From: Naegleria gruberi
Lineage: Eukaryota
Length of the DNA stretch: 64,000 nucleotides
Direction: 5' to 3' (one strand)
Assembly (NCBI GenBank): GCA_000004985.1
Contig: GG738856.1
Positions 9,416-53,294 of this stretch are shown here, piece by piece. The notes under the pieces are model-generated. The model made no database searches. It was not told where the DNA came from and worked only from the letters and a program-made list of their open reading frames with translations. Position 1 is the first letter of the stretch, and every line of letters begins with the position of its first letter. The translations under genes and the position numbers were made by a program.

Positions 9416-10544
9416 CTATTTTTTGGCACCAGGTATGACTGTTCTCTTTGCTTCTGCTCTTCTTTTAGCCTCTGTTGAATAACCATTAGCGAGTTGTTCA
9501 GTCGTTTTCAATTCAATCTTCTGGAGAACCTTCTTTCCTCTAACATTCTCCCAAGGATTCTTTTCCTCTCTTGCAAAATCATCAAGTTCTACTCCTGATT
9601 TTAATTTACTAGTTCATCATGGTCGATCGATTATTATTGTTGGAAAGTGAAAATACTTACATTGCAGCCAATTTGGATGAATTGGAATTTGGTTGAACCA
9701 TCTTGGAATAGTGACCGAATGGTGTAGCATCAAGTTTATCGTATTGTTCTACACCTAGCATGTCTTGTTTTCTCATATTGGATGATACCATCTTGGTTTC
9801 ACCTGGCTTTTTAGTCTTGTATTTAAAGGTATCTTTTGTCAATTCGAAAGGATCGTATTCATCCTCAAGAACAATATCTCTGAATACACCACCATTATTC
9901 TTATGTTTGTGATTGAGCCTATTGAGATATTCTTCAAACTTTAAACGTCTCTTCTTTTTTACTTCTTCAAATGGTAATTTGGCAAGATGTTCATCAATTT
10001 GATTCTGAATTGGATCAAAGACTCTTTCACACCACTCCTCGTAAATTTGTTGTCTCTTTCTCTCATCACCTTCCTCATAGGCAGCTAATTTTTCATTAAT
10101 GTCTTTCAAGAAGGTTTCTCTCTCCTCTAGAATATCATTCCACAACTCTTGAAACTTCTTTTCCGATTCCAGTTGCTTTTTAGACCTGATTTTTGCTGTT
10201 GTATCTTTAATCTTTTGAAAGTAAGCCTCTGTTTGTTGTTTCTTTTCCTCCTTCATAGTTTCCATCCTTGTTGTATTATTCTTGTTGTTTGTGGATGAGG
10301 TACCACTTGATGTTTTCCTTAGGGGAGCACTATTAGTCTTTTCTGGTTTTAATGTTTGGTCCACAGAAGAAGGTTTTTGAGGTGAAGGAATATAAACTTC
10401 TTCATTGGGATCAACATAATCATCAGGATAAACAATTCCATCAATAAGTTCCTTATACAATGTGGCATCATGAACAAAAAGTTGAGGTGATGTTAGTTGT
10501 TGAGGCGAATCGAGGGTTTGTTGTTTCGCCCTTGATGTTTGCAT
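9416..10544 (-). CDS. hypothetical charged coiled-coil protein, 2 exons
   Basis: Exons 10544..9661 and 9608..9416; intron 9609..9660 (GTAAGT...AG, 52 nt). The track ORF stop TAA is actually part of the donor GTAAGT. The spliced tail ...KLAAIKLKSGVELDDFAREEKNPWENVRGKK... stays open to the TAG at 9418..9416. The protein is K/E-rich and predicted coiled-coil. Confidence 0.55.
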
Positions 10545-10706
10545 TTTTATTTGTAGTTGGAATGTCGTTATTAAAGCGCCAAAATCAAAGATTTCAAATT
10601 TTTAAATATATTTATGATTTGGATTTATTGTTCTGTACAGTGAAAATGCTTAGGGGTTTGAAAGATATTTGGGGAGTGAAATTTAAATTGTAAAACCTAG
10701 TTGAAT

Positions 10707-11243
10707 TTAGAATTCTTGAGATGAAGCAGCAGAAGTTTCTTCTGATGACTTCTTACTACTCTTTTTATCACTACCTTTCTTGGCTGTTTGACCAGTTGGC
10801 AACAAGATGCTGTGAATGTTTGGAAGGACACCTCCGGAAGCAATAATAACTTCGGACAAGAGCTTATTCAATTCTTCATCGTTTCTGATAGCCAATTGAA
10901 TGTGTCTTGGGACAATTCTACCCTTCTTGTTATCACGAGCAGCGTTACCTGCAAGTTCGAGAATTTCAGCAGCCAAGTATTCCAAAACAGCAGCCATGTA
11001 AACTGGAGCACCAGCACCAATTCTTTCAGCATATCTACCTTCCTTCAAATATCTAGCCAAACGACCGACTGGGAATTGGAGACCGGCTCTGTTTGATCTA
11101 GATTGTGGCTTGGACTTTGGTCCCTTATGGGCTGGACGAGTACCAATCTTTTTCTTATTCTTCTTGTCCTTTTTGGTAGAAGTCTTGGTTGTGGTTTCTT
11201 CTTGTTCTTCTTCTGGGATGTTCTTTTCTGGTGAGGCTGGCAT
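10707..11243 (-). CDS. H2AX: histone H2A.X variant with an extended N-terminus
   Basis: Canonical H2A core: [77 protein letters not shown]. The C-terminal ...AASSQEF* is the SQ[E/D]-hydrophobic H2A.X motif. About 35 extra N-terminal residues ([32 protein letters not shown]). AATAAA lies about 100 nt downstream and no histone stem-loop was found. Confidence 0.9.
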
Positions 11244-11359
11244 TGTTAATGTTTTAGTTTAATGTTATTTTTTTGTTATTTGATTATTGTCAAGCAAGTG
11301 GAAGCTGATTTAAACGAAGAAAAAACGTAACAATTTTTTTGCGTTGTAATCTCATTTCA

Positions 11360-11369
11360 TTTGGCGCGC
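11360..11369. promoter_or_regulatory. E2F-like site TTTGGCGCGC in the divergent H2A.X/midasin promoter
   Basis: A GC-rich 10-mer in otherwise AT-rich intergenic DNA that matches the TTTSGCGC E2F consensus. It lies about 115 bp upstream of the H2A.X ATG. Confidence 0.4.
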
Positions 11370-12248
11370 ATTAAAAGTGGTTCCAATTAATTTAAATGCA
11401 TTAGTAGAGGATTTGTAACGATATTTTTCGATCCTTCTTGACTGTTACTATTAAGTATGTGAAACAGAAAGTTATTCAACAGCAAGTCAATGAACAAAGA
11501 CAATTTGAAGATAATAACATGTTTATTGGTAATTTCTCATTATTAAATTCCTCTGTTTACCATTGTTGTCAAATTTAATGTATCCGAGGTTGTTGCACCG
11601 TTTGCTCACTCAAAGATTACTTTCAGTGCAAACCTGATTAATTAATTTCAAGATTACTTTCTATCACAGTATCATAGCCACATAACAAAAACATCAATGT
11701 CCTCCAATGAACATTGATAAGATATTATTAATAATACCTCACAGAAAGATGCACACTTCAAGCGCAACACATTTTTGTTGAAGGTGAAAAAGACCAAGAG
11801 AAGATTCGAAAGAGAGAAAAAATAAATCACAGAGAGCCTGGATTTTGCTTCAACCTCTTAACTGAAGAATTATAACAATATTTGAAAGAGACAAAAAAAT
11901 GTTGAAACAATCATCCCTCTCAGCACCGAACCAAGAAAAGACTGCTTTTTCATATAGTCATATCTTGGTTGTGCTCGCTAAAGAATTTCCTTCACTTGAG
12001 AAGGAAGTTACAACATTTCAAAAAAAGGTTTGTTTTTAATGGACAAAGTACATGATGGATAACAAAATGATATTATTGAAAAACAATCATCCGATTATTA
12101 AAATTAGATATCTAACTCTTCCGATACTGACCAATATATTATAAAGGGTATTCAAACATATTTAATATCTTTATTTATTAAACAAGAATATACATACACT
12201 ATTGCTAGAATTTGTAAACCTATTTTACCACTTCTAGTTGCACAAGTA

Positions 12249-15200
12249 ATGGATAAACTGAACAATAACAACAATACAACGGATAGTAATTATGATACTA
12301 TTAATGCCATTACTAAAATTTTACCTTTATATCCTCAATTCAAAACATTCATCAAACAATATTTTAAGGATAGACCATCACTCATAGAATCTATTGTTAA
12401 TAACCATCAAGAAGACAAAATTGATCAAAAACAACTCATAACATTGTTGGAAATTACTTTACGATTATTAATTTTTGCACCATCTGATTTTTGTAAAATG
12501 TGGAATTGGTCACCATTCTTCTCGCTTTTAAAACACAAAAATAAGGATATCAAATCACTAACATCAAAATGTGTTTCAATTATATTGAAATTAGATGACC
12601 AATTTTTCAATTCAAAGATTGATAATTTAAAGACATATGTTTTGGAAGAAATTGAAAGTGAAGAATTAGTCCATTTGGAAAATACTCTTTCTTTCTATGA
12701 TGATACAGAGACTTCAAATATGGAAACAACAACAGAAGAAACAAGAGATAAACTCATCATTTCACACAAATCTGATTCTATGGTAAATGTTTGTGGTGTT
12801 TGGTTACACAAAAATCTTCGTGAAATTAAATCTTCCCAACAAAATATTTCAGCTGATAAGACTAAATTGATTTTCACAAAGACATCACTCGAAAATATGC
12901 GTTCATTGGCATTGGGAGTTGCACAAGAAAATCCTATTATTTTGGAAGGTATTATTGGTTCTGGTAAGACAGCCTACGTAGAAGAATTAGCAAGAATTAC
13001 AGGAAACACAGATCTTATCAAAGTCAATTTGGATGAATCTTTTGATAGTAAGGATTTATTAGGTACATATGTTTGTACTGATGTTCCAGGTGAATTCAGA
13101 TGGCAACCAGGTGCATTGACAAAGGCTGTCATGGAAGGAAGATGGATTCTTATTGAAGATCTTGATTTGGCTCCATTTGATATCATTTCATCGATTATTC
13201 CACTCGTAGAGTCAGGTAATCTTTTCCTTCCATCTAGAGATGAAATTATTCCAGCTTCAACTGGTTTCCAATTGTTTGCAACTCAAAGTCTTGTAGAATC
13301 ACTCAATGGAACAACAACAAGACAACGAGTTCTTCCAATGTCTAACTTGTGGACTAAGGTTAGGGTAAACAAATTACCATCTAAGGAGATTGAACATATT
13401 CTGAAAGTTAAATTCGAATCAATTCAACAATTAATTCCAAAGTTTATTGAAACATATGACGCTTTGAGAAGTGGTCATATTTCGGATGATTCTGAAAAAT
13501 CCGAGAAACAATCATCTGAATCAACACAGTTAAAGAGCTTTGGAAGACTTTTCTCATTCAGAGATTTACTCAAATGGTGCGAGAGAGTTCAACGATTTTA
13601 TGGACAAAAGATTCAAAAGAATCAAAACTATGTTTTAAGTCAAATTAAGAGAGACATTTTCCATGAAGCTATTGATGTATTTTGTGGTATGATTGCCAAA
13701 CATGACATTTATGATTCTGTTGTTGGAACACTTGCTCTTGTGTGGGAAATTTATAATTATGAAGAATATTTAAAGACTTATAAACCACAATTACATGAAG
13801 AAAAGGGAGTGATAACAGTCGGTAGAATTTCCCTAGAAAGAGATGAGAAGAATCTTGGAGAACTTCTTAACAAAAATAGTAACTTTGCTCACACCAAGCA
13901 AAGTTTAAGAATGATGGAAAGAGTTGGTGCCTGTATAAAGATGAACGAACCAATTTTATTGAACGGTGAAACTGGTGTTGGTAAAACTACTGCTGTTCAA
14001 TATTTGGCCAACTTGATGGGTAAAAAACTCCTTGTACATAACTTGAATCAACAAACAGACTCTGCAGATTTTATTGGTGGTTATAAACCAGTTGATTTGA
14101 AAATACTTGCAGCTTCTGTAAAGAGCAATTTTGAACAATTATTTTCAGTTACTTTCCCTTCAAAGGAAAACGAAGTAACATTGAAAAAAGTCAGAGATTT
14201 ATACACAAAGAAGAGCTGGGCTCAATTCATCATGATGTTGAATAAGATAATTGATCTTGCTGATCAAAAACTTTCAAAAGTTGATGAAGTAGTTGATGAA
14301 AAGTTAGAAGAAGTAGATTCAAAGAAGAGAAAGAAGACTCAAGGTTCTTCTTCTGGAACAAAGAAGCAAAAGACTTCTGATAAGACATCAACACTCAAAC
14401 AATATTGGACTAAATTCAAAGAAAGTGTTGACAAATTTAATCAACAACAAATACTTGTACAAAATAGCTTTGCTTTCTCTTTCGTAGAAGGTACCTTGGT
14501 TAAGGCTCTTAAGGAAGGTCATTGGATCTTACTCGACGAAATTAACTTGGCCTCTACAGAAACACTTGAAAGATTGAGCTCTTTATTAGAAGGTGAAGAA
14601 GGAACCTTATTCATTACTGAAAAAGGTGATACTGAACCAATTAAGAGACATCCAAACTTTAGAATTTTTGCTTGTATGAATCCTCCAACTGATATTGGTA
14701 AAAAGAATTTGCCACCTGGTTTGAGAAATAGATTTTCCGAGTTTTATGTTCACGAATTAACTGACAAGGACGACTTGAAGATTGTTGTTTCTAGATATTT
14801 GTCAACTGTACCACATCCACCAGTTGATGATATTGTTAATTTTTATTTGGACGTAAAGAAAAAGTCAGAAGCTGAACTTTCTGATGGTGCTTCCCAAAGA
14901 CCTCATTACAGTTTACGTACCTTGACAAGAAGTTTGGACTATGCCGTTTTTGTTATGAAGGACTATGGTATGGAAAGATCTCTCTATGAAGGTTTCTCTA
15001 TGGGTTTCTTAACCTTATTGAGTTCTGCTTGTTCATCCACAGTTGAAAAGATGATTAGAACTTGTTTCTTCAAACAAAAGAATGTTGATAATTCTCTTAA
15101 GCAAGCTCCAAGTCAACCAGCTAGTGGTGATTTTGTTTTGTTTAAACACTTTTGGTTGCCACAAGGTCAATTCGCACCAGAGCAACCAGCTGATTTTATT

Positions 15201-18200
15201 ATTACTGATACAGTAGAAGAAAACTTGAAGAATCTTGCTAGAGCTATCAAGACTAACAAGTACCCTGTATTACTTCAAGGTCCAACTTCTGCTGGTAAGA
15301 CTAGTATGGTTCAATATCTTGCTAAAATGACTGGTCACAAATTTGTAAGAATTAACAATCACGAAAGTACTGATCTTCAAGAATATTTTGGTTCTTATAT
15401 TACCAACTCTCAAGGAAAACTTGTCTTCCAAGAAGGTATCCTTGTTGAAGCTGTTAGAAATGGATATTGGTTAGTTTTGGACGAATTGAACTTGGCTCCA
15501 TCTGATATTTTAGAAGCTCTTAACAGATTGCTTGACGATAATAGAGAATTGTTCATCCCAGAAACTCAAGAAACTGTCAAACCACATCCACATTTCCAAC
15601 TCTTTGCCACTCAAAACCCTCCAGGTCTTTATGGTGGTAGAAAGGTTTTATCTCGTGCTTTCAGAAACAGATTTTTGGAACTTCACATTGATGAAATTCC
15701 AAGAGGTGAATTAGTGACTATTCTTCACAGAAGATGTCAAATTTCTAACCAACATGCTGAAAAGCTTGTTTCTGTTATGAGAGAACTTCAACAAAGAAGA
15801 CAAAGTAGTAAGATTTTTGCTGGTAAGAGTAATATTACACCAAGAGATTTGTTCAGATGGGCTGAACGTATGAAGGGTGCTGATGAAAAGATTAACTATA
15901 ACCAAAATGCTGCTGAAGAAGGTTTTATGCTTTTGGCAGAAAGACTTCGTAGAGATGAAGAAAAGGATATTGTTAAAGAAATTTTGGAAAAGGTTTTCAA
16001 GACTAAACTTGATCTCGAAAGAATGTACAATCCAAAAGAGCTTGATAACTTACAAGTTGCTGGTAGTACTATTGTTTGGACAAAGACAATGAAGAGAATG
16101 TACGTCCTTGTTGGTAAATGTCTTCAATTCAGTGAGCCTGCATTGCTTGTTGGTGATACTGGTACCGGTAAAACAACTGTTTGTCAAGTTTATGCTGATA
16201 TTTATGAACAACATTTGAGAATTCTCAATTGTCACCAACATACCGAAACAAGCGATATCTTGGGTTCTCTTCGTCCTGTAAGAGGTAGAGAAAAGTTAAA
16301 GATAGAATTAGAAGAATTAATAGAAGAATTTATTACCACAGCTAATACTAAATACTCACTCGATATTAATTTTGGTAACGAAACAAGTATTGGTAAGAAA
16401 GTCAAGAGATTGGAAGATATTTGCAAAAAGCTTGCTAAGGAAAGAAAATTAGCAGAACCTCAAAAGAAAAAGCAAAAGAATGAATTTAAGGAAAAGGAAC
16501 TATTGGAAAAACAATTGATTATAAGAGATATCTATCAAAAATGGAAGGCTCTTTTCACTTGGTATGATGGACCTCTTGTTCAATCAATGAAGAGTGGTGA
16601 AATTTTCCTTATTGACGAAATTTCTTTGGCTGAAGATGCTGTTCTTGAACGTTTGAACAGTGTATTGGAACCTTCAAGAGAATTAACTCTCCCAGAAAGA
16701 GGATCTGAAAAGATCGAAAGTATTGTTGCTCATGATAAGTTTAGAATTTTGGCAACAATGAACCCTGGAGGTGACTTTGGTAAGAGAGAACTTTCTCCTG
16801 CTTTGAGAAATCGTTTCACTGAAATTTATGTTCCAAGTTTGTCTGTTTCTGAAGACTTGGCTATTATTGTTGCAAGCAAATTAGATCAATCAATCAAGAG
16901 TTTTAATACTAGAATGGTTGAATTTGTTCAATTCTTCAAGTCTAAGAGAACTAAGAGATTGTTGAGTGTAAGAGATGTCATTTCATGGGTTCAGTTTATG
17001 AATATGGCTGTTGCTAAACTTGACATGGATGCATATGGTGCCTTTTTACACGGTGTTGACACAGTTATCTTGGAAAGTATTGGTGTAGGTACTGACTCTT
17101 CTGCCAAGAACAGATTATTGCTCAGAAAGGAATGCTTTACTTTCTTACTTGATAAGATTGCTCAAGAAAATGTTTTGAGCACTGAACAACTCGAATATTA
17201 TAGAGATGTTTTCCTCAATGAAAACTACACTGCCATTAGAAGTAACAAGACCAAAGAATCCTCAGAATACTTTGGATATCATCCATTCTATGTTAAATGT
17301 GGTGAAAGTAGTGAAAGAAAGATTGTTTATGCTTTGGATGCTCCAACTACTGGCAGAAATGTCATGAAGGTCCTCAGAGCTATGCAACTCAGAAAGCCAT
17401 TACTTCTCGAAGGTAGTCCTGGTGTAGGAAAAACATCTTTGATTTCTGCTATTGCTAAAGCATCTGGTCACAATATTGTTAGAATTAACTTGAGTGAACA
17501 AACAGATATGATGGACTTGTTAGGTACTGATTTGCCTGTTGAAGGAAGTTCTGGAGGTCAATTCAGATGGTGTGATGGTATCTTCTTGAGAGCTTTACGT
17601 AATGGTGATTGGGTTTTGTTGGATGAATTGAATCTTGCATCTCAATCAGTTCTTGAAGGTTTGAACTCTGTTTTGGATCACCGTGCTGAAATTTATATTC
17701 CTGAAATTAACGAAACTGTTAAATGCCCAGAAGGTTTCCGTATCTTTGCATGCCAAAATCCTTTACAACAAGGTGGTGGTAGAAAGGGTTTACCAAAGTC
17801 ATTCCTCAATCGTTTCACTCAAGTCTATGTTGATGAATTGAGACCAGAAGATTTGACTTTCATCCTTAATTCTATTCATGGTGATATTGGAGAAGAAAAC
17901 ATCAAGTTGATGATTGACTTTAACAGAAAAATGCACAAAGAAACCATGGAGCTCTATCGTTTTGGTAGAAAGGGAAGCCCTTGGGAATTCAACTTGAGAG
18001 ATGTTTTCAGATGGTGTGAATTATTGAAGAAGGAAAGAGAATTGAACAAGGACTGTACCAAACCAATTGATCCAATGAGAATGATCGATTGTATGTACAA
18101 GCAAAGAATGAGAACAGTAGAAGATCGTAAACATGTGGAAAGAGTTTACAAGGAATTGACTGGAAAGGATTTCCCTTGTGAAACTAATCCAACATATACC

Positions 18201-21200
18201 ATCACTCCTGGTGCTGTTCAAATTGGATCTTCTATTTTGTTAAAGAATAGTTCATTTGACGATTCTGATAAGGATAACCATGCCCCAAGTACATCATCAC
18301 AAGATTTGATCTTGTTGCAATCCTTCTTGAACCCACTCGAAAATATTATGAAATGTATTGAAATGAACTATTTGACTATTGTCAATGGTCCATCTGCTTG
18401 TGGTAAAACTTCTATTGTTAGATTGATTGCTCAAATGACAGGAAATATGTTAAGTGAATTCTCTATGAGTAGTTCCACTGATACTGTCGAACTTTTGGGT
18501 GGTTTTGAACAAGTAGATCCTATTCAAAAAGTTAGAAAGATTGCCAGTTTTATTAAGATTAAGATTGATGAACTCGCCAGAATTGCATTCTTAAATGATG
18601 AAAATCTTAGATTCGATGCTCTTAAGTTGTTGTATAACCAATGGACAACTTATGATGCAACTGCTAAGAAGGATGCTTCATTCTCTGGTATTGAACAATT
18701 GAAGAGTATGTGTGAAACTCTATTCGATAACTTGGAATATCAAAGTGATGAAAAGCAAGCTATTATTCAACAATTGGATAATTTAAGTAAGCTTTTGGAA
18801 ATGGGTGTTAAAGGAAGATTTGAATGGAACGATGGTGTTTTGATTCGTTCTTTGGAAGCTGGTAACTGGATTCTCATTGACAATGTTAACTTCTGTAATC
18901 CAACCGTCCTTGACAGATTGAATTCTCTCTTGGAACCTGAAGGTGTTTTGGTTGTGAATGAAAGAGGTTTGGTTGATGGAGAAATCCGTATTGTTAAACC
19001 ACATCCACACTTTAGAATTTTCATGGTTATGGATCCAAAATATGGTGAAATTTCTAGAGCTATGAGAAACAGAGGTATTGAAATCTCAATGTTCCCAATT
19101 ACTATTCCTTCACAAGATGCTTTTACTCTCTTGGCTAATAATGGTGTACCATCTGCACATTTGTGTAATGTTCTCATGGACTATCACGCTAAATTCACTC
19201 AAAAGATCTTTTTACCAGAAGAAGATCGTCCAACTATTCGTGACTTGTTGAGATGTGCTGAAGTATTCAACTCTGAAGTTAAGCAAGGTTTGAACATTAC
19301 AAATGCTTTCAAGGCTGCTATTTCTTGTGTTTACATTAGAAGTAGATGTTCTTCAAAGTCAGCTGTCGATATTGCTGAAAGTGAATTAGAGGAATGTGCC
19401 AAGCAATTACCAAGAAATGATCATGGATTCCCATCAACATTTGTTGCTGCTAATGCATTCAAGTGCGACAAATCTTTGTTCAGAACAGTTTTTAGACAAT
19501 CTGCCAGATTGTATGATATTATCAGAAATTATCTTAGTCTCAAAGTTGCTGAATCAAATGATCATAATGATAGCACAAAGAAACTTCTTGATTCACTTAA
19601 ATGGAAGATTCTTGTTACTGATTTACCACCTCATTTCTTGCAAACAAATGATGTAGAAAAAACTATCATTTCAGCTGATGTTATGGATACATCTTCAACA
19701 TCAAACTTGATTAATGATATGCAATATGCTTTGGAATACTTTATTGATGTTTCCTCATTCAAAGATATTGATATTAGAGTAATTTGGTTGCAAAGATTAC
19801 TTACTCTTTGTAAATCTGATAAGATTCTTGAAGAATTGTTAACAAAGGGTATTGAATTGTTGAATACGAGAAAGGGTTGTGAAGTTTCAAAGAAAATTCA
19901 AAAGATATTCAAGAATATGCAACAAACAGTCACTCAAAGATTCTCTGAGATTATTGCTTCTCAACCAATGAACTTGAAATATAGCGAGCAATTGTTTGCT
20001 AGACTCCAATATTTGGGATTGATTAACGAACAGGATAATTATGTTTTTGATGCTGCAACTATTTTAACATCTCAACAAAAACGTAAATACGAAGAACAAC
20101 AAAGTATTGCTGTTGAATTCCAAGGTACTATTGTTGAAAATAAGTCTTCATTGCTTCATCAATCATATTATTACCATCTCAATCCAAAACACAGAAGTAC
20201 AGCACCAAACAGAGTTGTTGTACATCTTTATACTTTATTTGTTCAAATTGATGAGCTTGTTGATGCCATTATGAATTCTAAAGTTGACGAATCTGTTTGT
20301 AGTTTGGATGATATTAGTGGCATGTTGAGATGTAGAGACAAGTTGTGGTTCTATTTATCTCATACTGCTGAGCTTTCTGAAGAGTTCTTTATTTATTGGA
20401 ACTGGTTAGCCAAAGAATTCTTAAAGGTTAAAGTCAAGAAGCCTGCCACTTCTGGAAAGAAGAAGAATATTTCTGAAACACCATATGGACTCTATGAACA
20501 ATTATGCACATTCATGGGTGAAATTGATGGTTTGGTTATTAGCAACTTTAACAGTGTTGGAAAGAAGAATACTTTATACAAGAATTGTGGTAAACCTACC
20601 ATTTCTCTTTCAGTTGAATTGAAGGAAATCGAAGATACTATTACTAATTATCTTTCAGTTAATACCTCTTCAAATACTGAATCTAAGGAATTGAAGCAGT
20701 TGGTTTATAATGCTATGAGTACTGTCAAGTTACTTCAACAAGAACCTAATCATCCAGACCAAGAAAAGCTTCTTCAATATGTTAGAACTGTTCCAGAGCT
20801 CTTAGAAAAGGCTAAACCAAAGGAGCAAGAAATTTCTGAAGACGTTTACACACCATACAAGGAATTGGCTACCAAGTCAGAACAAGAACTTGTTATGGAT
20901 AAGATCTTCCGTGATATTGCTGAATTTACTGCTCCTGACAAGAAGCACATCAATGCTGCTTCTTTGCACTCCACACAAGCAATTTCTCCATTGTTTGACT
21001 ATAAGAGTATGCATCATGAAATGAATGTAGTAACTTTGCTTTCAAAGATTGGCTACATTCTTAAACGTCTTGATGCTTCTTCAGATGTTAAGGAAATTAA
21101 GCGTTTATTGTCAACAGCTGTTGCAAAGGGAAGACATTTGATTGACTTTATCTTGCAAAACTGTTCTCGTGGTCCACTTGATCTCGTTCCATATCAATTA

Positions 21201-24200
21201 TTGTTATGGAGAATTTCTAACTTGGAAACAAACTCTGCTGATGAAATTAAGAAGATTGCCTTAGGCATTCCTTCATTGCTTCACTTTGTATGGATTTACT
21301 GGAATGAAAGAGTTTGGGAAAATACCTACAATACATCCATGTTTGAAAATTCTGATTCTACTGAAACTCCAGTTTCGAGAGATGATCTTGCTGGTCCAAA
21401 CAGATTATTCCAAGATGTTAACTCTGTGCACATTTTGAAATTGTTGAGTGGTTGGGAAAATATTCCTATTCGTTCAAGACATATCAAGATTGACCAACTT
21501 AAGAAGGTCGTACAATTCATTTGTACAAATGTTGATAATGTACAATCTGAAGAAGTAGATTGGAATAATCTTGTTTATTTGTATTGTGATACTTTGTTGA
21601 GTTTCAAGAAGAGCTTCCCAGAAGCATCTTTCCAACTCTTGTTAGATATTACTGATTCTTTGTGTGCAACTAAACAAGCTTCCGTCCAAGATCTTACTAA
21701 GATTATTGAATCATCAAATGATGGAAGATTGAAGGCTAAGAAAAATGATATCATTTCTGTTTGCAATCTCATTTGCACAAGAGATGAAGATAAGAATAAG
21801 GATTTGATGAATCGTGGTTTGGCTTGGTTAAAGTTGGGTGAAACTAGAATGAATTTGTTCATTCCAGCCAATTCTTTGGATCCAACTTTGAAGTATGCAA
21901 TTTATGATAAGCATCTCAAGGAAGATATTCAAGTTCTTCAAGGAAAACTTGAAATTATGACTTCTATTGAGCGTTTCATTAGCGGAAGTGGTAGAAATAT
22001 CATTTCTGACAAGATTGAAAAGGATATTACAAATATTCAATCAATTGTTGATAAGATAACTCCAAAGGTTATTAACAGACCAACTAATATTTCATTCATT
22101 GATATGTATCGTGAAATGAAGAGTTTGGCTGACCAACATGAAGTTATCAAGAACTTGTCTAATAGTTTGATAAAGTTCTTTGAAAGTGATAATGATGACA
22201 AGCAAGATATGGTTGCTGAACTTATCAATAAGGAAGAATCCTATCAAGCAAACAGCCACTCTCACATTAAATCAAAGATCTTGAAGAATTCGTTTGGTTT
22301 TGAAGATTTGGCATTGCCATTTGCTTCATCTGCTTATCATATCAAGTACGGTTTGAGATTATTATGTTATGGTTCACTTGCTAAGAAGGATGAGTCTGAA
22401 CAAAATACTGTCAATCAAATTTTGAACCATCTTCTCTCCTTCCCATCTTGTAACTCGGTTCAAACTATTGAAGATGATTTGGCTATCGTTCAACAATGGC
22501 TCAAGTCTATTGAAAACTCTGCCAATACACAATCCAAGTGTAAGCAATATGAAACAGCTACCAAGGTTTTGCGTGTCTTGATGTCCAGATGTTTGTTGAT
22601 TACAGTTTCTCAAACTTCCAGCCAAGACAATACAATCCATAACCTCCAATTATTGAACCAAGTTTTCGTAATGTACTCTAACTTGTTCGAATCTGTTGAA
22701 GATGAACTTGAAAAGAAGAAGGCTGAAGAAGACAACTTCTACAAGTACAAGGAAAGAAAGACAACAATCGAAACTGAAGAAGAAATTTTGGAAGAAGAAA
22801 TGGAAACCATGTTCCCAACTTATAGCGAAGATTATTCTCAATTCAATGCACCAACCGAGGAAAAGAATATTATGAATTTGTCAGAGAAGAAGGAATCCTT
22901 GATATCTGAAAAGTCACTCTTGGAAAGAGTTAACAAGGTTATTCATGATGAAAGAGAAATTGACTACTTGGTTCGTACTCACAAGGATATCTTCTCCTTC
23001 ATCTCTTCCTCTAGTCAACTTAGACCTGTTGATACTATTGACACTATTAGAAATAAGATGTTTGACGAATCCTTTAATGTAGCTGTTCATATCATTAACA
23101 CACTCAACGGAAAATACCAAATTGATATGACTTCTTCAGGATATCTTCCACTTGTTCTTTTCGGAAGTAGAGCATTGAATAATCTCTGGGTTAAGGTTGA
23201 TAATTCAAAGGAAGCTAAACTCAAGGCATACAGTGAAGTTTACACTGAACCAAATATTCCAGAAATTACTCTTGCTTTCAGCACTCTCTTCAGTATGCTT
23301 CAAAGATTGAACTTCTTGATCAAGAAGTACAGTACTGAAGAACAAAAGGGTCACCCAATCCTTGTAGAAATGGTCAAGATTATTGAACATATTCTCAATC
23401 AACCAATTACTAGTCCAATCATTAAGATTCTTACTGGTCTTGAATTAGTATTAATCAAAGCTGGTGAATGGGAAGAATATCTTACAGCTCATGTAAATTC
23501 TTTGAAGGATGAAATTAGAAAATTATCTGGTCTCATTATTAGATGGAGAAGAATGGAATTAGAAAACTGGAAGGGTATTTATGATTTGAAGAATAGAGAA
23601 TACAAGAACAAATCTATTAATTGGTGGTTCAGATTCTACAATATGATTTGTAATAGTAGTTTCAAGATGGAAGAACTCACCAAGATCATTGAAGACTTCT
23701 TTGGTATTTGTGATGACTTTATCAGAACATCAACCATTGGTGACTTTGAATATCGTCTTGGATTGTTGAATAACTTCTATCAACATTTAGCTGCAGAAAT
23801 TGAAAGAAAGTATTCTGATGATGTAGAAGTTAGAACTAAGATTAGAGATATTATTTTCAATTTGCACAAGTATTATTCTCAATTCTCCGGTAAGCTTGAA
23901 GAAAGACTTGACCAAGAAAAGCAACCTTTGGAAACTAAACTCAGAGACTTTATCACTCTCACTAAATGGGAAGATGTAAATATTGATGCCATCAGATTCA
24001 CAACTAAGAAGTCTAGAAGAGCCCTTGCTAAATTCTCTAAAGGTTTTGGTGAAGTTCTCGTCAAACCAGCTAGAGATTTGTGGGACAAGTATGATGAACT
24101 TGCTGCTGCTTCTGAAATTATCCAAGAATCTGAGAAGAAGCCTAAGAGAAAGAGCAAGAATAAGAAGATCAAGAAGAGAAAGAATAAGAAGTTTATTGCT

Positions 24201-27200
24201 GATGAACCAGACGACATTATTCAACAAACTATGAACAGAGGCAAGAATCTTATCAAGAGCCACGAATTTAAGAATTGTCTTTCATATACCAAAAAGGAAA
24301 AGGAATTGCTTTCTGTTATTGAAAAGGAATTTATGGAAGATTCCAAGAATGTTGTAGATAGACTTCCAGTTATTTATGAATTGGTTGGAAAGAACTTTGA
24401 AAACTTGATCATCAAGAGTGCTGTTCCAAAGGAATTTGATGCTGTAACAAGCAATATTGAAGATTTTAGTGTTGAAATTATTGAACAAACCCAACTTCTC
24501 AACAAGGAAAATTCTCCAAAGAGTATGAAATTGAGAGCTCTCGTTACTTTGTTGACAGAACTTAAGGAAATGGGCATTTCCTACTTGAAGAAGAGTGTTG
24601 GATCTGAAACTGCTATTGACAAGATTTTCCAAATTCCAGATGTTGGATTCTCATTGAATAACCTCACTTCAAATGATGTTCAAGAAGTTTTCAAGAAGGC
24701 TGATGACTATTACTTTAAGAACATTTTCAGTGTTCAAAACTTTAAACTCACCTTTGAAGGCGAAGTTTCTGGTGATATCAAGTCTCAACAAACCAAGATG
24801 AGAGGTTATCCAGACAATTTGTTCTTCCTCACAATGAAACACAGAAGAATCTTGGGTACTATTGAAGCAAGCCAAAAAGCTAATAAGTCTTTCCTTTCAA
24901 CCTTGAAACATTTGAAGCAAAGCTTTGAAAATGAAAAGGATGAAGGTGTTATCATTTCACAAAGCAAGGCTAGAGAATTGTTGAATGTACAATCAGGATA
25001 TGTCTTTAGACTCTATGAATTGGTTGCCCAAATCACTTCTCTATACACAGCTCTCTCAAAGCATGATAGTGCTTATGATAAACCTTTGAAGACTATTGAA
25101 GATGCCAAGAGTATCATTGATAGAAGCGTCGATCTTTTAGAAAGAATTATGAATAGAACTCAACTCTTCAGTACTAAGGATTTGAAGGAGCTTTCCGAAA
25201 ATCTCGAGACTTTGCAAAACGCTAGAGGTATTCTCAACAAGTTTGTTTCTGAAACCTCTGATCTTCCAAAATCAAAGGAATTGATTAGTCTTGTTGAAGA
25301 GTTTGATCAAGTCAAAACTACCTATGAATCAATTGTTGCAGAAGAAGCCAGTAATAACAAGTTTGATTTGGCTTCTATTTCATCATTTGCCAAGCTTTAC
25401 AAGCATGCTGTCAAGTCTATTCAATTGACTATCCAAGATTTGGTAAAGGCTTGCTCTGAAGAACAAGTTCAATATGAAGAAACTATGAAATCAGCCTCTG
25501 AAGAACTCAAGAATAGAAAGAAGGAAGATGATGAAGAAGATGACACTTACTCTGCTTCTTACTTGAGCAAGAATAACTCCATTCAAAGACTTGAAGAATT
25601 TATTGATAGATGTCATGGAGTTATCACTACTGGTTTGGCCAAGATTAACAAGGACATTTCTGGAATGATTGAATTCATCGTTGACAATAGTAAGAATTCT
25701 CAAAACATTACAAACAGTCTTACAGAATTGTTGAGTAACTTAGCTCCATTATTGCAAAGATTGGATGGTGTTGTTGATACCCTCAAGATTCCTCTTGTTT
25801 ATTATCACAAGAGTATTTCCAAACTCACTTATGTTCTCCTCAATATCTTCTCAACTTTGTGCAAGCAAGGTTTCTGTGGTAAGGATGACGAAGAACAAGG
25901 TGAAGGAGAAAGTGATGGTGTTGACTTTAGTTCTGGTACTGGTATGGACGATGGTGAAGGTATCAATGATATTGGTGATCAAATTGACAATGAAGATCAA
26001 TTATTGAACGAAAAGGATAAGCAACAACAAGAAGGTAATAAGGACCTTGAAAAGAACGATAATGCTATCGAAATGGACGGAGACTTTGAAGCTGAAAAGC
26101 AAGAAGTTGACGAACAAGAGGATGATGAGGAACAAGATCAAGATGAAGAACAAGATGAAAATAAGGAAATGGGTGAAATAGATGAAGATGATCCAAATAA
26201 GGAACAACTTGATGAAAAACTCTGGGACGAAAATGAAAATGACAGAGATGACAAGACTGAAGAAGGTTCCGATAAGAATGACAATCCTCAACAACAAGAT
26301 AGCGAACTTCAAGCGCAAGAAAATGAAAATGATGATCATCAACAAGATAATAGAAAGGACAAGCAAAAGAAGGATGACAAGCCAATGGAATACGAAGAAG
26401 ATGAAGAAGCTGTTGAACAAGAAGAATTCGAAGATAATATGGATGATAAATTCAATGATGAATTCCAAGACCAAGATAAGGATGGTGAAGATCAAGATGG
26501 AAAAGACAATGATCAACAAATGGATGATTTGGAAATTTCTGAAGATGAACAAGAAGGCGATGAAGAAAATCAAAATGAACAAGAAGGTGATGAAGAAAAC
26601 AAGGATGGTGAAGATAAGGAAGAAGGAGACAATGAAGATGCTGACGGTGATGAAGACTTGAAGAAGAAGAAGGATGAAGAAATTGATGAACAAGTTGACA
26701 CCGAAGATATCGCTCCAGAAGACCAAAATATTAGTGGACAAGATGAAGACAATCAAGATGCTATCGATCCAAACTTGGAATCTGAAAACAAACAAGAAAA
26801 GGACGAAGATGGCAATGATGACGAAGATGGTGAAAAGGAAAATGAACAAGAAGAGGAAGAAAAGGCCCATACTGCAGAGGAAGAAGCTGATTCTAAGGAT
26901 CTCAAAGAAACTCCATTTGGTGTTAAACAAACTGCTGGTAAAGCTTCTGATATTAAGGAAGATTCAGCTGAAAATGAACAAAGACAAGAAAAGAAGAATA
27001 ACAATGCTGAAGAAAGTGGTAAAGACACCAATAAGAATGAAATGGGTGAAAGTATGGATCAAGGTACTGATAATAATGCTGACCAAGAGCCAGAATCCGG
27101 CCAAATGCAAATGGATCCAAATCCTCTCAGAAGCTTGGGTGATGCCATGAAGAATTGGAAGAAGAAGCTCAACCTCGTCGAGAGAAACAAACAAGAAAAT

Positions 27201-36405: not shown

Positions 36406-37952
36406 TTAATCTCGCAAATTTAATGTTACATCTCTTCCTTGAACGAAAACTTTAGAAATATTTCTGTCATCTCCATTGAAAATAAATCTGCTAAAGTTTT
36501 CTTTAAGTTTCTTCTCTTCCATTTCATGGGCAGGAACACTTGTAAAAACATCACTGTACAAATCATTGAATGAATCGATACTTCCTTCTTTAACATCGAC
36601 ATCAATGATTAAGGCATCAAAGCTTTTACCTTCTACAAAGTTACCGACCTTGCTTTCGATATTCAAAGCTTCAGCACCTCCAACTGTGGCAATGTAGAAT
36701 GCTTCATCAATAGTAATTGGTACTGTATCTTCGGTTGCGTCTGTTTCATTTCTGATATGGTCAGTACTGGCAGAGGCAGTAGCAATAAGAGTATTTCTAA
36801 TAGAATTGAACATGGATGAAGAATATCCTCCAGAAATATCAGTACCCATACTAACTTTAACACCTCTATTAATTAATTTTCTGACATTCAACACACCGCT
36901 GCACAATGAAAAGTTGCTGAGTGGACAGTGGGCAATAGTCGATCTTCTTTCTTTGATCAATTCGATTTCTGAATCAGTCAAATAAACACCATGAGCCAAA
37001 ATTGTCTTTTCATTTAACAATCCAACCTTATCATAAACCTCTGCATAACTAGTATTGGAAGGGAAGAGTTCTGAAACCAATTTAACTTCTCCAGTATTTT
37101 CTGAAATGTGTGATTGAATTGGTACATCATTATATTCATTGTAAATTTCAGCCAAACCCTTCATCATTTCCTCAGAGCATGAAACTGCAAACTGTTCAAT
37201 AACAATCAATAATTTTCAGCTTGAATTCAAAATAACAATAACTTACTCTTGGTGTAAGAATTGGTTTGACCATATTGAAGTGTTTCATTTGTTCCATGAA
37301 TTTTCTCACATCATCAATACCTTGATGTGTTTCTTCACAATAATATTCAGGAGCAAATCTATCCATACTCACTTTTCCTACATCTATTAGTAGTAAATAA
37401 TATGCACATAAAAATCAACATGTGTTGATACTCCTTTAAATAACTGCTACTGATTAGATACTTACAAGCTCTCTGACCAATTTCTTCAATGATTTTAGCT
37501 AACAAAATTGTTGCGTCATTGTGAATTGTGCCAAAATAAACACTTGTTGTTGTTCCGTTCATCAAGGAACGACGAACGCATGAAGTGTAAACACGAATAG
37601 CAATTTGCAAATCTTTAAATTTACTTTCAACAGGGAATGTGTATGTATTTAACCATTCAAGGAGTGGCATATCTAGTCCGAGACCACAATTGAAATATTG
37701 TGGAGCATGAGCGTGAGTATCAATCATACCTGGAATAACAATTTGAGAAGGTTTCAAGGTAATTCTGTCATATTCCTTCCATTGCGTTTCCAACAATGCG
37801 GAGTCATCATTTTGCTTCATATCCAACACTCTTTCAATTGTACCATCATTTCCAACAATAATTGCTCCTTTTGAACAATAACGCAAGCATTTTGCTGAAA
37901 GCTTGTCCAATGCATGAACAAATGGTCCAATCACAATCAATCCTTTTTTCAT
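36406..37952 (-). CDS. guanine deaminase (amidohydrolase superfamily), 3 exons
   Basis: Exons 37952..37466, 37383..37247 and 37191..36406; introns 37384..37465 (82 nt) and 37192..37246 (55 nt), both GTAAGT..AG. Motifs: PGMIDTHAHAPQYF...PLLEWLNTYTFPVE...NGTTTSVYFGTIH...GQRA|YVGKVSMDR...ILTPR|FAVSCSEEMM...HISENTGEV...AHCPLSNFSLCSGVLNV...SMGTDISGG. These are collinear with animal/bacterial guanine deaminases. Confidence 0.85.
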
Positions 37953-43251: not shown

Positions 43252-44572
43252 TCAGTTGTGGAAAGAAGAGTAACATTCAATTGTTGTTGCGAGTTGCTCT
43301 CTGGCTTCGTAGAACCCATCTTCTTCAAAACCACCATCTCCCACAATCCAGTGAACGAAAGCTCTCTTACTATACATCAAATCAAATTGTTTCAGAAGGT
43401 TTTCAAGATAGCTTGTGATAGAGGTAGTATTGTTGGCAATGTGCATTACATTTGAAAAGTTGAAAGACTCTGGGTAGACATTCTCTGGCCCCTTGTTTGA
43501 TATTTGATATTGGGCTTTTTCTGTCTCATTTGAAAATTTCCAATCAGTTTTGAGTTTTTCTGAAAGTAAGCTTGTGTGATTCTTTGAAAAATCGCCTCTC
43601 ATTGCTATATTCATTGCTATGGTAACACCATTATTGGCCATATTCATTGAGGTATTTCTTGAAAAGATATCCTTTATGCTCAATTCAGTCATGGATGTAT
43701 CTTGCAAGTTTACAAAACTATTGCATATTATGTTGGCATTATATGAAATAGGAAGAGTTTCACACACATCACGTAAACTTCCTTCATTTGAATCTAATCT
43801 GAGATGTTAATGTTGAAATGTTTTGTGAAATCAGATGGTTCATTTCCTTAAAGTTTGGATTCTTTATACCACTCTCCACGCACGCATTTGATAGAGCATA
43901 ATTATCATACGAAAATATAGATTGTACATTATCATGAATATAATGCAAGGCAATAACTGCATTGTATGGCTCCAATATTGATGTAGAATAGGTTTCCGTT
44001 GGAAAAATTGAAAAGCATGACTTGATCATAGTGTCAACAATATCGTGCCCATATTTACTTACCATTGGAAGTTGAAATTCATGGGCCAAATCATAGATAA
44101 GAGAAGAGGTCGATCCAGATCCAGTTCCTCCACCAAGAGAATGAGTAACCAGTACAGTCCCCATCGAATCACAATTTTCCACCATTTTCCTCACTCTCTC
44201 CTTAACATAGTCCCACATTTCTCCACTCATGATGTGATATCCTTTTCCAAAATTTGATGAAGCATCATAATCTGCATAATCAATAGGGGAAACTATATTT
44301 TCTTCCTTAAATTGAGATTGAGATCTTGATGATGCCTTGGTCAGTCTCTGTATTTGTGAGTCTGTATCAAAGAATAAACATCGAGCATGATAAACATTCT
44401 CCATTCTGATAGACTCATCATATAAACATGATAGATTATTAATGCTATTGTTTTGTTGGCCAGGGTCAAGGGAACAAGAAGGTAATTTGTGTTCTTTGGC
44501 AAATAAATTCCAAAGATCAATTCCGATCTCACACCCACAATTGCCAAAATGAAGAAAGATCAATTCTTTCAT
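43252..44572 (-). CDS. divergent tubulin-superfamily protein, frame interrupted by an apparent 1-nt indel near 43787-43789
   Basis: N-terminus MKELIFLHFGNCGCEIGIDLWNLFAKEH is tubulin-like. Signature VTHSLGGGTGSGSTSSLIYDL. C-terminus ...QFDLMYSKRAFVHWIVGDGGFEEDGFYEAREQ. Far more divergent than alpha, beta or gamma tubulins (possibly a delta/epsilon/zeta-type). The two track ORFs 43784..44572 and 43252..43767 join as ...TSQIRF|(N)EGSLRDVCETLP (compare tubulin SLRFDGALNVDL) only if one nucleotide in the run ttcaaatg is skipped. Confidence 0.65.
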
Positions 44573-51911: not shown

Positions 51912-51961
51912 AATGATGTTACTTCAATTTTTTTTTAATATTTAGAATTTGGAGGTTTAAA

Positions 51962-51974
51962 TTTTGGCGCCAAC
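51962..51974. promoter_or_regulatory. E2F-like palindromic site TTTTGGCGCCAAC, about 50 bp upstream of the kinesin-13 ATG
   Basis: The same 12-mer TTTTGGCGCCAA recurs at 62922..62933. Its GC-rich palindromic core matches the TTTSSCGCSAAA E2F consensus. Confidence 0.45.
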
Positions 51975-52141: not shown

Positions 52142-53294
52142 TTACTTTTGCAATTTGCTCAATGCAACACCTACTGTGAAACCACTGGCAAGCATTGATG
52201 CTACACCAATCATTCCACCAAAACTCAAATTAGCCATTTGGGATAAACCTTGTCCAGAAGTGCAACCATGTCCAGCTCTTGCACCAAAGAGTAATAAGAA
52301 ACCAGATGCTATAGCCCAGCACTTTTCCTTATTACTGAGCTTCTTTGGTTCAGCACGAGTACCAGCAAGATAGGAGGAAAAATAACTTCCTCCAACAATG
52401 CTCAAATCAGAAATCAATTGCCACAAATATTTAGCACTCTTTGAGATTGTGAATCTTTCAAAGTACTCTTGCTCAACTGGCAAGTATCTAGTAATAAATG
52501 TTACTGCAGTAACAAATGCGGACGAAGTTCCCAACGTAGTTTTACAAATTAGATTAACTGGTACTTGGAGAGCTCCCAAAGCAAGACCAGAATAAATTGG
52601 GTGCCATTGTCTTCTCTTGAGGAGACACTTTTCAGTACTGATGAGATCAGTCTCTGGAGTTGGAAAGAGCTTTTCCAAAGTACAAGCAATACCAACAAGC
52701 ATTGTACCTACTGGCAATGCAATGCTCCACATTGGTTTACCAAGAAGTCCATGAAGAGTATTGAATGATCCTGGAACTTCTGTGGATTCCAATAAACTGT
52801 TAACAGTAGGATTATTGATCACAATTCCATAGACAGTAGCTCCAATAATACCACCCAACAAAGTATATAAAGAAGATGGTACACCTTCACCAGCTTGGGC
52901 CAAAACTATTAATTTCCAAATCAAAATCAGCATTCCAAAAAAAGAGAACTGTTAAATCACATACTCACAAAAAATAGTAATACTAACCTGTACCAGGACA
53001 TGCACCTCCTAGAGCCATTCCAACACCCATAATAGCACCTCCAGAGATTGTACTTCTGAGATTAATATTAATTGGGGAGAGTGTTGCAACACCCATCAAA
53101 TCCAACAAACCCAAAGAAATTGTACTTGCTCCCGAAGCAGACAAGAAGGTCTTCATCATGGACCAACTTTTTAGAGCCATTTGGTTCTTAATATTTTCAG
53201 GAGAGGACATTCTACTCTTTTGCAAAATTATACCAAAAGCAAGACCTTCTGGAATACCAACACTGATGGCAGCAGTACAACTTGGACTAGACAT
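52142..53294 (-). CDS. YeeE/YedE-family (sulfur-transport domain) membrane protein-like, 2 exons
   Basis: Exons 53294..52988 and 52948..52142; intron 52949..52987 (GTTAGT...CAG, 39 nt). The join is in frame: ...GGACPGTG|VLFFGMLILIW... Polytopic and hydrophobic. Two copies of the family hallmark G-x-x-x-G-x-C-x-x-G, near the end of each half (GMALGGACPGTG and GARAGHGCTSGQG). Confidence 0.55.

What the first reader, a model, noticed from the sequence alone, without database searches (positions are those of the whole stretch)
11355..11375. GC-rich E2F-like motif TTTGGCGC(C) recurs in three promoters (H2A.X/midasin, KIF24-like kinesin-13, unknown basic protein)
In a roughly 30% GC window I found only three TTTGGCGC occurrences: 11360-11369 (TTTGGCGCGC), 51962-51974 and 62921-62939. 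The last two share the 12-mer TTTTGGCGCCAA, which is palindromic around GGCGCC. All three lie in 5' intergenic DNA within about 120 bp of an ATG, and none is in coding sequence. The expected count of this 8-mer by chance is below one, and an exact 12-mer repeat is much less likely still. The sequence fits the TTTSSCGCSAAA E2F/DP consensus, and the linked genes (a histone H2A variant and a mitotic/centriolar kinesin-13) are classic E2F targets. The third target (62962..63975), a basic coiled-coil protein, would then be a candidate cell-cycle gene.
Basis: partly seen in the sequence, partly recalled or inferred. Interest (0 to 1): 0.6.

Follow-up and report, generated by a model that had tools for sequence, protein, structure and literature searches.

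The report
Conserved E2F-type promoter sites in Naegleria
A short GC-rich sequence that matches the binding site of the cell-cycle transcription factor E2F lies just upstream of four genes in this Naegleria gruberi region and is kept upstream of the same genes in related amoebae, so it is very probably a real regulatory switch of a well-known kind seen here in a little-studied lineage.

Summary
The window is Naegleria gruberi nuclear DNA. TTTGGCGC occurs four times, not three. The missed site is on the minus strand at 10576-10583. All four lie 29-117 bp upstream of a start codon and none lies in an ORF (expected 0.39; 0 of 100 shuffles reach 4).

The linked genes are an H2A.X histone, a FAM228-like gene, a SAM-domain kinesin-13 and a lineage-restricted orphan gene. 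Midasin is not a target. An unbiased 8-mer scan of the non-ORF DNA ranks GGCGCCAA first.

The motif recurs upstream of the orthologous genes in N. fowleri, N. lovaniensis, Willaertia magna, Acrasis kona and unnamed heteroloboseans. It is found in 12 of 14 orthologous promoters in the relaxed form TTSSCGS (shuffled mean 1.1; 0 of 1000 shuffles reach 12). It is rare in neighbouring promoters and in coding DNA.

N. gruberi encodes E2F, DP, an E2F7/8-like protein and RB. Its E2F and DP recognition helices are almost identical to those of human E2F4 and DP2.

Best reading: these are functional E2F-family binding sites that give cell-cycle-linked transcription. Binding and expression dependence are untested. 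This is a new member of a known kind and of moderate interest.

The parts
10576..10584 (-). Site A. TTTTGGCGC in gene sense, 32 bp upstream of the ATG (10544) of the FAM228-like gene.
   Evidence: The N. lovaniensis orthologue has TTTCCGCCAAAA (TTTTGGCGG on the other strand) about 27 bp upstream of its ATG.
11360..11369 (+). Site B. TTTGGCGCGC, which reads GCGCGCCAAA in the sense of H2A.X, 117 bp upstream of the H2A.X ATG (11243).
   Evidence: GCGCCAAA occurs in the same orientation 107 bp upstream of the H2A.X ATG in N. lovaniensis and 159 bp upstream in W. magna. Near-matches occur in A. kona and in a Logan heterolobosean contig.
51962..51973 (.). Site C. TTTTGGCGCCAA, palindromic around GGCGCC, 51 bp upstream of the kinesin-13 ATG (51911).
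   Evidence: In N. fowleri, TTTGGCGCC is the only TTTSSCGC hit in a 22-kb locus and lies in the kinesin upstream intergenic region. W. magna has TTGGCGG, A. kona has TTTCCCGC and a JGI metagenome heterolobosean has TTCCCGCCAA.
62921..62933 (.). Site D. TTTTTGGCGCCAA, palindromic core, 29 bp upstream of ATG 62962 of the orphan gene D.
   Evidence: Orthologues: ENA Naegleria sp. TTGGCGCC about 25 bp upstream of the ATG, N. fowleri CCCGCCAATTTT about 25 bp upstream, W. magna CCCGCCAAA about 55 bp upstream, N. lovaniensis none.
9657..10544 (-). FAM228-like gene (first exon or ORF, 295 aa), the presumed target of site A.
   Evidence: tblastn gives 66% identity to the N. lovaniensis gene and 44% to the W. 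magna gene; both carry PF28229 (FAM228). The local Pfam copy gave no hit.
10707..11243 (-). Histone H2A.X gene (178 aa, C-terminus SQEF), the presumed target of site B.
   Evidence: Pfam Histone and Histone_H2A_C. Identical to N. gruberi XP_002679821.1.
49614..51911 (-). Kinesin-13 with an N-terminal SAM domain (KIF2/24-like, 765 aa), the presumed target of site C.
   Evidence: Pfam Kinesin 3e-99 and SAM_2. Orthologues are annotated as kinesin family 2/24.
62962..63975 (+). Orphan gene D (337 aa, basic ends, helical core), the presumed target of site D.
   Evidence: Only Naegleria and Willaertia homologues were found. No Pfam or PDB sequence match. AlphaFold2 pLDDT 65, with a confident helical core at residues 80-190.
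11377..11386 (-). TTGGAACCAC (gene sense), a second conserved block 9 bp upstream of site B in the H2A.X promoter. It may be a partner element.
   Evidence: TTGGATCCAC lies next to the E2F-like site in the N. lovaniensis and W. magna H2A.X promoters.

Best explanation
The four TTTGGCGC elements are binding sites for the Naegleria E2F family. The likely binder is the E2F-DP heterodimer, possibly together with the E2F7/8-like DEL protein. The sites sit in the proximal promoters of H2A.X, a FAM228-like gene, a SAM-domain kinesin-13 and a lineage-restricted orphan gene.

Inferred mechanism, by analogy with animals and plants: the RRxYD recognition helices of E2F and DP contact the central GGCG(C/G) core, and the T-run is read on one flank. 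An RB-family pocket protein holds the promoters off outside the proliferative window, and CDK activity releases it. The four genes would then be transcribed together in a cell-cycle-linked pulse (S phase to mitosis).

Shown here:
- the motif exists;
- it is confined to promoters;
- it is more frequent than chance allows;
- it is conserved in orthologous promoters across Heterolobosea;
- the organism has E2F and DP with recognition helices almost identical to the human ones.

Inferred, not shown: actual binding, the direction of regulation, and the timing of expression.
For: - Consensus match. All four sites fit TTTSSCGC exactly. Two form the near-perfect palindrome TTTGGCGCCAA.
- Position. All sites are 29-117 bp upstream of an ATG and none is in an ORF.
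- Statistics in the window. 4 observed against 0.39 expected, with 0 of 100 shuffles reaching 4. GGCGCCAA is the top word in an unbiased 8-mer scan of non-ORF DNA. No other promoter in the window carries even the relaxed form TTSSCGS.
- Conservation (phylogenetic footprinting). H2A.X promoters of N. lovaniensis and W. magna carry GCGCCAAA in the same orientation at a similar distance. Kinesin-13 promoters of N. fowleri, W. magna, A. kona and a metagenomic heterolobosean all carry an E2F-type core. So do 3 of 4 gene D orthologues and 1 of 2 FAM228 orthologues.
- Orthologous promoters with a hit: strict 4 of 14, TTTSSCGS 7 of 14, relaxed 12 of 14. Shuffled means are 0.23, 0.52 and 1.12, and 0 of 1000 shuffles reach the observed count in each case.
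- Target against non-target promoters, orthologues only: Fisher p = 0.012 (strict) and 4e-4 (TTTSSCGS).
- Trans factors. N. gruberi E2F, DP, DEL and RB are listed by Medina et al. 2016 (PMC4862756 supplement). The E2F DNA-binding domain matches 1CF7 chain A at E = 7e-25, with [24 protein letters not shown] identical. The DP domain matches 1CF7 chain B at E = 1e-28.
- Target logic. Human H2AFX, KIF24 and KIF2C are DREAM/E2F targets (PMC5729532). Naegleria kinesin-13 is reported as upregulated during mitotic synchrony and during differentiation (bioRxiv 10.1101/2024.01.08.573270).
Against: - There is no binding or expression evidence for these four genes. The expression tables of the Naegleria RNA-seq study were not available, and I could not confirm that the reported kinesin-13 is this gene.
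- No classic replication genes (MCM, PCNA, RNR) lie in the window or in the fetched loci, so the expected core regulon could not be checked.
- Conservation is imperfect. The N. lovaniensis gene D promoter and the W. magna FAM228 promoter lack the motif. The distance to the ATG varies for the kinesin (51 to about 245 bp upstream).
- The relaxed pattern TTSSCGS was defined after seeing the sites.
- Transcription start sites are unknown, so some sites could lie in 5' UTRs.
- FAM228 and gene D have no known cell-cycle role.
Confidence: 0.75

Rival explanations
1. The element is a real, conserved cis-regulatory site, but a factor other than E2F reads it. Candidates are a CCAAT-box/NF-Y type factor or an unknown heterolobosean GC-box protein. 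The resemblance to the E2F consensus would then be coincidental.
For: Sites at gene D in N. gruberi and N. fowleri, and at the kinesin of the JGI heterolobosean, contain CCAAT (GCGCCAATT, CCGCCAATT). No binding data exist. A second conserved block, TTGGAWCCAC, lies beside the H2A.X site, so other factors clearly act there.
Against: CCAAT is absent from sites A, B and C and from most orthologous sites. The part conserved throughout is TTGGCG(C/G), which is the E2F core. The E2F and DP recognition helices are almost identical to the human ones, so the cell contains a factor expected to bind exactly this sequence. NFI-type sites need a 5-bp spacer (TTGGC N5 GCCAA), which is not present here, and NFI is confined to animals (own knowledge).
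Confidence: 0.12
2. The element acts at the RNA level, for example as a 5' UTR signal for translation or stability, or as a general core-promoter or start-site element rather than a gene-specific switch.
For: Sites A, C and D lie only 29-51 bp from the ATG and transcription start sites are unknown. The orientation is conserved among H2A.X orthologues.
Against: Only 4 of about 35 promoters in the window carry it, so it is not a general core element. Orientation differs between genes, and between orthologues for the FAM228-like gene. The self-complementary 10-mer has no loop and cannot form a hairpin on its own. No Rfam family matches.
Confidence: 0.06
3. Chance recurrence of a rare word, or remnants of a short repeated or mobile element.
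For: Only four copies are present. After Bonferroni correction over all 8-mers, the window-only p-value is marginal (about 0.014 for GGCGCCAA and not significant for GCGCCAAA).
Against: 0 of 100 shuffles reach 4. Similarity between sites C and D stops at 12-13 nt, so there is no repeat element. Independent recurrence in orthologous promoters of five other taxa excludes chance (0 of 1000 shuffles; Fisher test against neighbouring promoters).
Confidence: 0.03

Closest known systems
E2F/DP-responsive promoter elements (TTTSSCGC) of animal and plant cell-cycle genes, as seen in the E2F4-DP2-DNA structure 1CF7
   Same: Same consensus, including the high-affinity palindromic form TTTGGCGCCAAA. Same proximal promoter position. 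The trans factors are present with almost identical recognition helices. The linked gene classes (an H2A.X histone and a KIF2/24 kinesin) are E2F/DREAM targets in humans.
   Different: The lineage is Heterolobosea (Discoba), where the held literature describes no E2F site. There is a strong preference for GG at the SS positions (TTTGGCG in 15 of the 17 sites I aligned by eye). Binding and cell-cycle dependence are untested. Two of the four targets (FAM228-like and the orphan gene D) have no known counterpart among E2F targets.
DREAM-type CDE/CHR tandem elements of G2/M genes in animals
   Same: A GC-rich E2F/CDE-like core lies upstream of a mitotic kinesin. Human KIF24 and KIF2C are DREAM targets.
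   Different: No CHR (TTYGAA) lies at a fixed 4-nt spacing downstream of the core in any of the four sites (read directly). I did not check whether Naegleria has MuvB or LIN54.
Predicted E2F regulon in the ciliate Stentor coeruleus during oral apparatus regeneration (PMC9371601)
   Same: A protist in which E2F targets were predicted from promoter motifs and are expressed when centriole and basal-body genes are expressed. The Naegleria kinesin-13 is KIF24-like, a centriolar type, and kinesin-13 is reported as upregulated during flagellate differentiation as well as mitosis.
   Different: The Stentor work has RNA-seq and RNAi support. Here the support is comparative sequence only, and the clearest target is a histone rather than a centriole gene.

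Membership tests
E2F/DP binding site (E2F-responsive promoter element) | Sequence fits the consensus TTTSSCGC | tested here: met
   All four sites match exactly. Two extend to TTTGGCGCCAA.
E2F/DP binding site (E2F-responsive promoter element) | Lies in non-coding DNA close to the gene start | tested here: met
   The sites are 29-117 bp upstream of ATGs and none is in an ORF. The conflicting NCBI fusion model for site D is not supported by the orthologues. Transcription start sites are unknown.
E2F/DP binding site (E2F-responsive promoter element) | The organism encodes E2F and DP with an intact RRxYD recognition helix | tested here: met
   N. gruberi E2F, DP and DEL sequences come from the PMC4862756 supplement. 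They align to 1CF7 chains A and B at E = 7e-25 and 1e-28, with recognition helices almost identical.
E2F/DP binding site (E2F-responsive promoter element) | An RB-family pocket protein is present to confer cell-cycle control | not tested
   The supplement of PMC4862756 lists NgruRB. I did not analyse it.
E2F/DP binding site (E2F-responsive promoter element) | Enriched in promoters over coding and background DNA | tested here: met
   Met for the window plus about 190 kb of related loci. A genome-wide test is not possible with these tools.
E2F/DP binding site (E2F-responsive promoter element) | Conserved in orthologous promoters | tested here: met
   12 of 14 orthologous promoters carry the relaxed form, 7 of 14 TTTSSCGS and 4 of 14 the strict form. 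0 of 1000 shuffles reach these counts.
E2F/DP binding site (E2F-responsive promoter element) | Physically bound by E2F/DP | not testable with these tools
   Needs EMSA, DAP-seq, ChIP or CUT&RUN.
E2F/DP binding site (E2F-responsive promoter element) | Linked genes show site-dependent, cell-cycle-phased expression | not testable with these tools
   There is only an indirect literature hint: kinesin-13 is upregulated in Naegleria mitotic synchrony. Per-gene tables are not held.
CDE/CHR (DREAM) tandem element | A CHR (TTYGAA) lies 4 nt downstream of the GC-rich CDE | tested here: not met
   Read directly: no TTYGAA at that spacing at any of the four sites.
CCAAT box / NF-Y site | CCAAT pentamer shared by the sites | tested here: not met
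   Among the N. gruberi sites only D contains CCAAT. A, B and C do not.
NFI palindromic site | TTGGC N5 GCCAA, with a 5-bp spacer | tested here: not met
   Sites C and D read TTGGCGCCAA with no spacer. A and B have only one half.

The most novel reading that the evidence does not exclude
The sites mark a heterolobosean E2F regulon that reaches beyond DNA replication. On this reading it drives Naegleria's transient microtubule programme: the spindle built de novo at each mitosis and the centrioles built de novo during the amoeba-to-flagellate switch. This would parallel E2F4/5 in animal multiciliated cells and E2F in Stentor. The FAM228-like gene and the Naegleria/Willaertia-restricted orphan gene D would then be new components of that programme.
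Probability: 0.2. Interest if true: 0.6.

Novelty: new member of a known kind. Interest (0 to 1): 0.4.

Why it matters
The E2F-DP-RB module is inferred to date back to the last eukaryotic common ancestor, mostly from the presence of the proteins. Conserved, promoter-specific E2F-type sites in Heterolobosea would be cis-regulatory evidence that the module is wired to histone and mitotic-motor genes in Discoba as it is in animals and plants.

In practice this gives a cheap handle for predicting the Naegleria cell-cycle regulon, including that of the pathogen N. fowleri. It flags two uncharacterised genes (FAM228-like and the orphan gene D) as candidates for proliferation-linked functions. It also corrects one fused gene model.

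Tried and rejected
- Expression data. The supplementary tables of the Naegleria mitosis and differentiation RNA-seq study are not held. The Current Biology version, the 2010 microarray paper and the genome paper are not held either.
- Midasin as a co-target: rejected on distance and lack of synteny.
- Repeat-element origin: rejected because similarity ends at 12-13 nt.
- Histone 3' stem-loop or other RNA families: no Rfam match and no tRNA genes in the window.
- FAM228 literature: nothing informative.
- Other top words in the 8-mer scan (CAGATGCA and related) turned out to come from a 75-bp tandem repeat next to the assembly gap and are not regulatory motifs.

Full report
**Origin of the window.** The H2A protein encoded at 10707..11243(-) is identical to Naegleria gruberi XP_002679821.1, which lies on a 602-kb scaffold. 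Bases 1-3600 are an assembly gap. GC content is about 33-34%. Long ORFs cover about 81% of the non-gap sequence.

**The observation.**
- TTTGGCGC occurs four times on the two strands: 10576-10583(-), 11360-11367(+), 51963-51970(+) and 62923-62930(+). The expectation is 0.39, and 0 of 100 dinucleotide-preserving shuffles reach four.
- The degenerate E2F consensus TTTSSCGC returns the same four sites and no others.
- The 12-mer TTTTGGCGCCAA is exact at 51962 and at 62922. These are also the only two GGCGCC sites in the window.
In gene sense it reads TTTTGGCGC and lies 32 bp upstream of the ATG of ORF 9657..10544(-).
- The other three sites lie 117 bp upstream of the H2A.X ATG, 51 bp upstream of the kinesin ATG and 29 bp upstream of ATG 62962.
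- All four sit in the 19% of the sequence outside long ORFs. The non-ORF DNA is poorer in GC (30.7% against 34.5%).
- In an unbiased scan of all 8-mers in the non-ORF DNA against an order-2 Markov expectation, GGCGCCAA ranks first (p 4e-7) and GCGCCAAA seventh. The remaining top words all come from a 75-bp tandem repeat at 3601-4214.

**The linked genes.**
- 10707..11243(-) is an H2A with the H2A.X C-terminal motif SQEF.
- 49614..51911(-) has a central kinesin motor and an N-terminal SAM domain. Its relatives are annotated as kinesin family 2/24.
- 9657..10544(-) has no hit in the local Pfam copy. It is 66% identical to an N. lovaniensis gene and 44% identical to a W. magna gene, and both of those carry PF28229 (FAM228).
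- 62962..63975(+), called gene D here, has homologues only in Naegleria and Willaertia.
- The NCBI model XP_002679689 (743 aa) joins 61338-62480 to 62887-63972 through an "intron" that is itself in-frame ORF. All orthologues are stand-alone proteins of 355-470 aa whose N-termini align with the ATG at 62962. The model is therefore a fusion and site D is intergenic.
- Midasin (12249..28598) starts about 885 bp from site B, with no ORF in between. It is not adjacent to H2A.X in N. lovaniensis. I do not count it as a target.
- None of the other genes in the window is a recognisable cell-cycle gene. None of their promoters carries even the relaxed pattern TTSSCGS.

**Conservation in orthologous promoters.** I fetched orthologous loci from N. 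fowleri, N. lovaniensis, Willaertia magna, Acrasis kona and three unnamed heterolobosean assemblies. The table gives what lies upstream of each orthologue. Distances are in bp upstream of the ATG, measured to the nearer edge of the motif in the N. gruberi column and for the N. lovaniensis and W. magna H2A.X sites; the remaining distances are taken or are approximate.

| Gene | N. gruberi | Orthologues |
|---|---|---|
| H2A.X | GCGCGCCAAA in gene sense, 117 bp | N. lovaniensis GCGCCAAA, same orientation, 107 bp; W. magna GCGCCAAA, 159 bp, plus CCGCCAAAA, 144 bp; A. kona GCGCCAAC, 210 bp; Logan contig CCGCCAAAA, 110 bp |
| Kinesin-13 | TTTTGGCGCCAA, 51 bp | N. fowleri TTTGGCGCC, the only TTTSSCGC hit in 22 kb; W. 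magna TTGGCGG; A. kona TTTCCCGC; JGI heterolobosean TTCCCGCCAA |
| Gene D | TTTTTGGCGCCAA, 29 bp | Naegleria sp. TTGGCGCC, about 25 bp; N. fowleri CCCGCCAATTTT, about 25 bp; W. magna CCCGCCAAA, about 55 bp; N. lovaniensis none |
| FAM228-like | TTTTGGCGC in gene sense, 32 bp | N. lovaniensis TTTCCGCCAAAA, about 27 bp; W. magna no match |

(Sources.)

Counting only the orthologues, so that the discovery set is excluded:
- 4 of 14 promoters carry strict TTTSSCGC, 7 of 14 carry TTTSSCGS and 12 of 14 carry TTSSCGS.
- The shuffled means are 0.23, 0.52 and 1.12, and no shuffle in 1000 reaches the observed value.
- Against the neighbouring non-target promoters in the same loci, 4 of 12 target promoters carry the strict motif against 3 of 60 (Fisher p 0.012). 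For TTTSSCGS the counts are 6 of 12 against 3 of 60 (p 4e-4). These tests use the 12 orthologous promoters available. One of the three non-target hits is the kinesin site itself, shared with a divergent neighbour.
- About 180 kb of coding sequence holds only three strict hits.
- The relaxed pattern was chosen after seeing the sites, so its p-value should be discounted. The strict consensus was fixed beforehand.

**The trans factors.**
- The supplement of Medina et al. 2016 (PMC4862756) lists N. gruberi E2F, DP, a two-domain DEL (E2F7/8-like) and RB.
- The E2F DNA-binding domain aligns to chain A of 1CF7 (human E2F4 bound to DNA with DP2) at E = 7e-25. The stretch [24 protein letters not shown] is identical.
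- The DP domain aligns to chain B at E = 1e-28. [26 protein letters not shown] is identical apart from two conservative changes.
- It is established knowledge that these helices read the CGCG-type core. I infer that the Naegleria proteins prefer the same sequence.

**Interpretation.** The simplest account is that these are E2F-family sites giving proliferation-linked transcription.
- Human H2AFX, KIF24 and KIF2C are DREAM/E2F targets (PMC5729532).
- A Naegleria kinesin-13 is reported as upregulated both in mitotic synchrony and in flagellate differentiation (bioRxiv 10.1101/2024.01.08.573270). I could not confirm that it is this gene, because the tables are not held.
- A non-E2F factor remains possible. 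However, CCAAT occurs in only a minority of sites, the NFI spacing is wrong and no CHR accompanies the core.
- A general core-promoter role is excluded by the rarity of the motif (4 of about 35 promoters).
- Chance and a repeat-element origin are excluded by the orthologue data and by the lack of similarity beyond 12-13 nt.

**Novelty.** Searches of the held literature for Naegleria with E2F, promoter motifs or kinesin-13 found no description of E2F sites in Naegleria or other Heterolobosea. The nearest protist precedent is the motif-predicted E2F regulon in Stentor (PMC9371601). This is a well-supported new instance of a known regulatory system in a new lineage. It is not a new kind of system.

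**Limits.**
- No genome-wide scan was possible.
- There are no binding data and no per-gene expression data.
- Transcription start sites are unknown.
- Gene boundaries in the window are ORF-based.
- The E2F and DP sequences were taken from a paper's supplement and were not re-derived from the genome.

Noticed in passing
window 11377-11386 (- strand); L003:9867-9876; L004:9847-9856: A second conserved block, TTGGAWCCAC, lies next to the E2F-like site in the H2A.X promoters of N. gruberi, N. lovaniensis and W. magna. In W. magna it is sandwiched between GCGCCAAAA and CCGCCAAAA. Only three other copies occur in about 220 kb, all inside ORFs. It may be a histone-specific partner element.
   Followed up: partly
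window 61338-63975: NCBI model XP_002679689 (743 aa) fuses two genes through a predicted intron (62481-62886) that is itself open reading frame. Orthologues of the downstream part are stand-alone proteins of 355-470 aa.
   Followed up: yes
window 3601-4214: A 75-bp tandem repeat, about 8 copies at 76% identity, abuts the 3600-base assembly gap. It accounts for several over-represented 8-mers.
   Followed up: partly
window 38030-38037: TTTGCGCC, a near-miss to the E2F consensus, lies 81 bp upstream of the amidohydrolase ORF 37359..37952(-), which is probably split by an intron from 36406..37209.
   Followed up: no
L002:9926-9941 and L010:4791-4807: The W. magna kinesin promoter (TTGGCGGTTTCCCTCC) and the A. 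kona H2AX promoter (GCGCCAACTTTCCCTCC) share TTTCCCTCC directly after the E2F-like core.
   Followed up: no
window 43252-44572 (-): A tubulin-family gene is split into two ORFs (43784..44572 with the tubulin GTPase domain, and 43252..43767), presumably by a short intron. There is no E2F-like site upstream.
   Followed up: no
window 49614-56280; L001 and L002 7031-12390: In N. fowleri and W. magna the kinesin-13 gene is paired head-to-head with an EH-domain gene. In N. gruberi a sulphur-transport gene (52142..53294) lies between them. The N. fowleri site is shared by the divergent pair.
   Followed up: partly
   Followed up: partly
L004:3260 and L007:13025: Two further exact GCGCCAAA/TTTGGCGC sites lie in promoters unrelated to the four targets. 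One is between RPN7 and an unknown gene in W. magna. The other is 273 bp upstream of a Zn_clus transcription-factor gene in N. lovaniensis. They may be additional regulon members.
   Followed up: no
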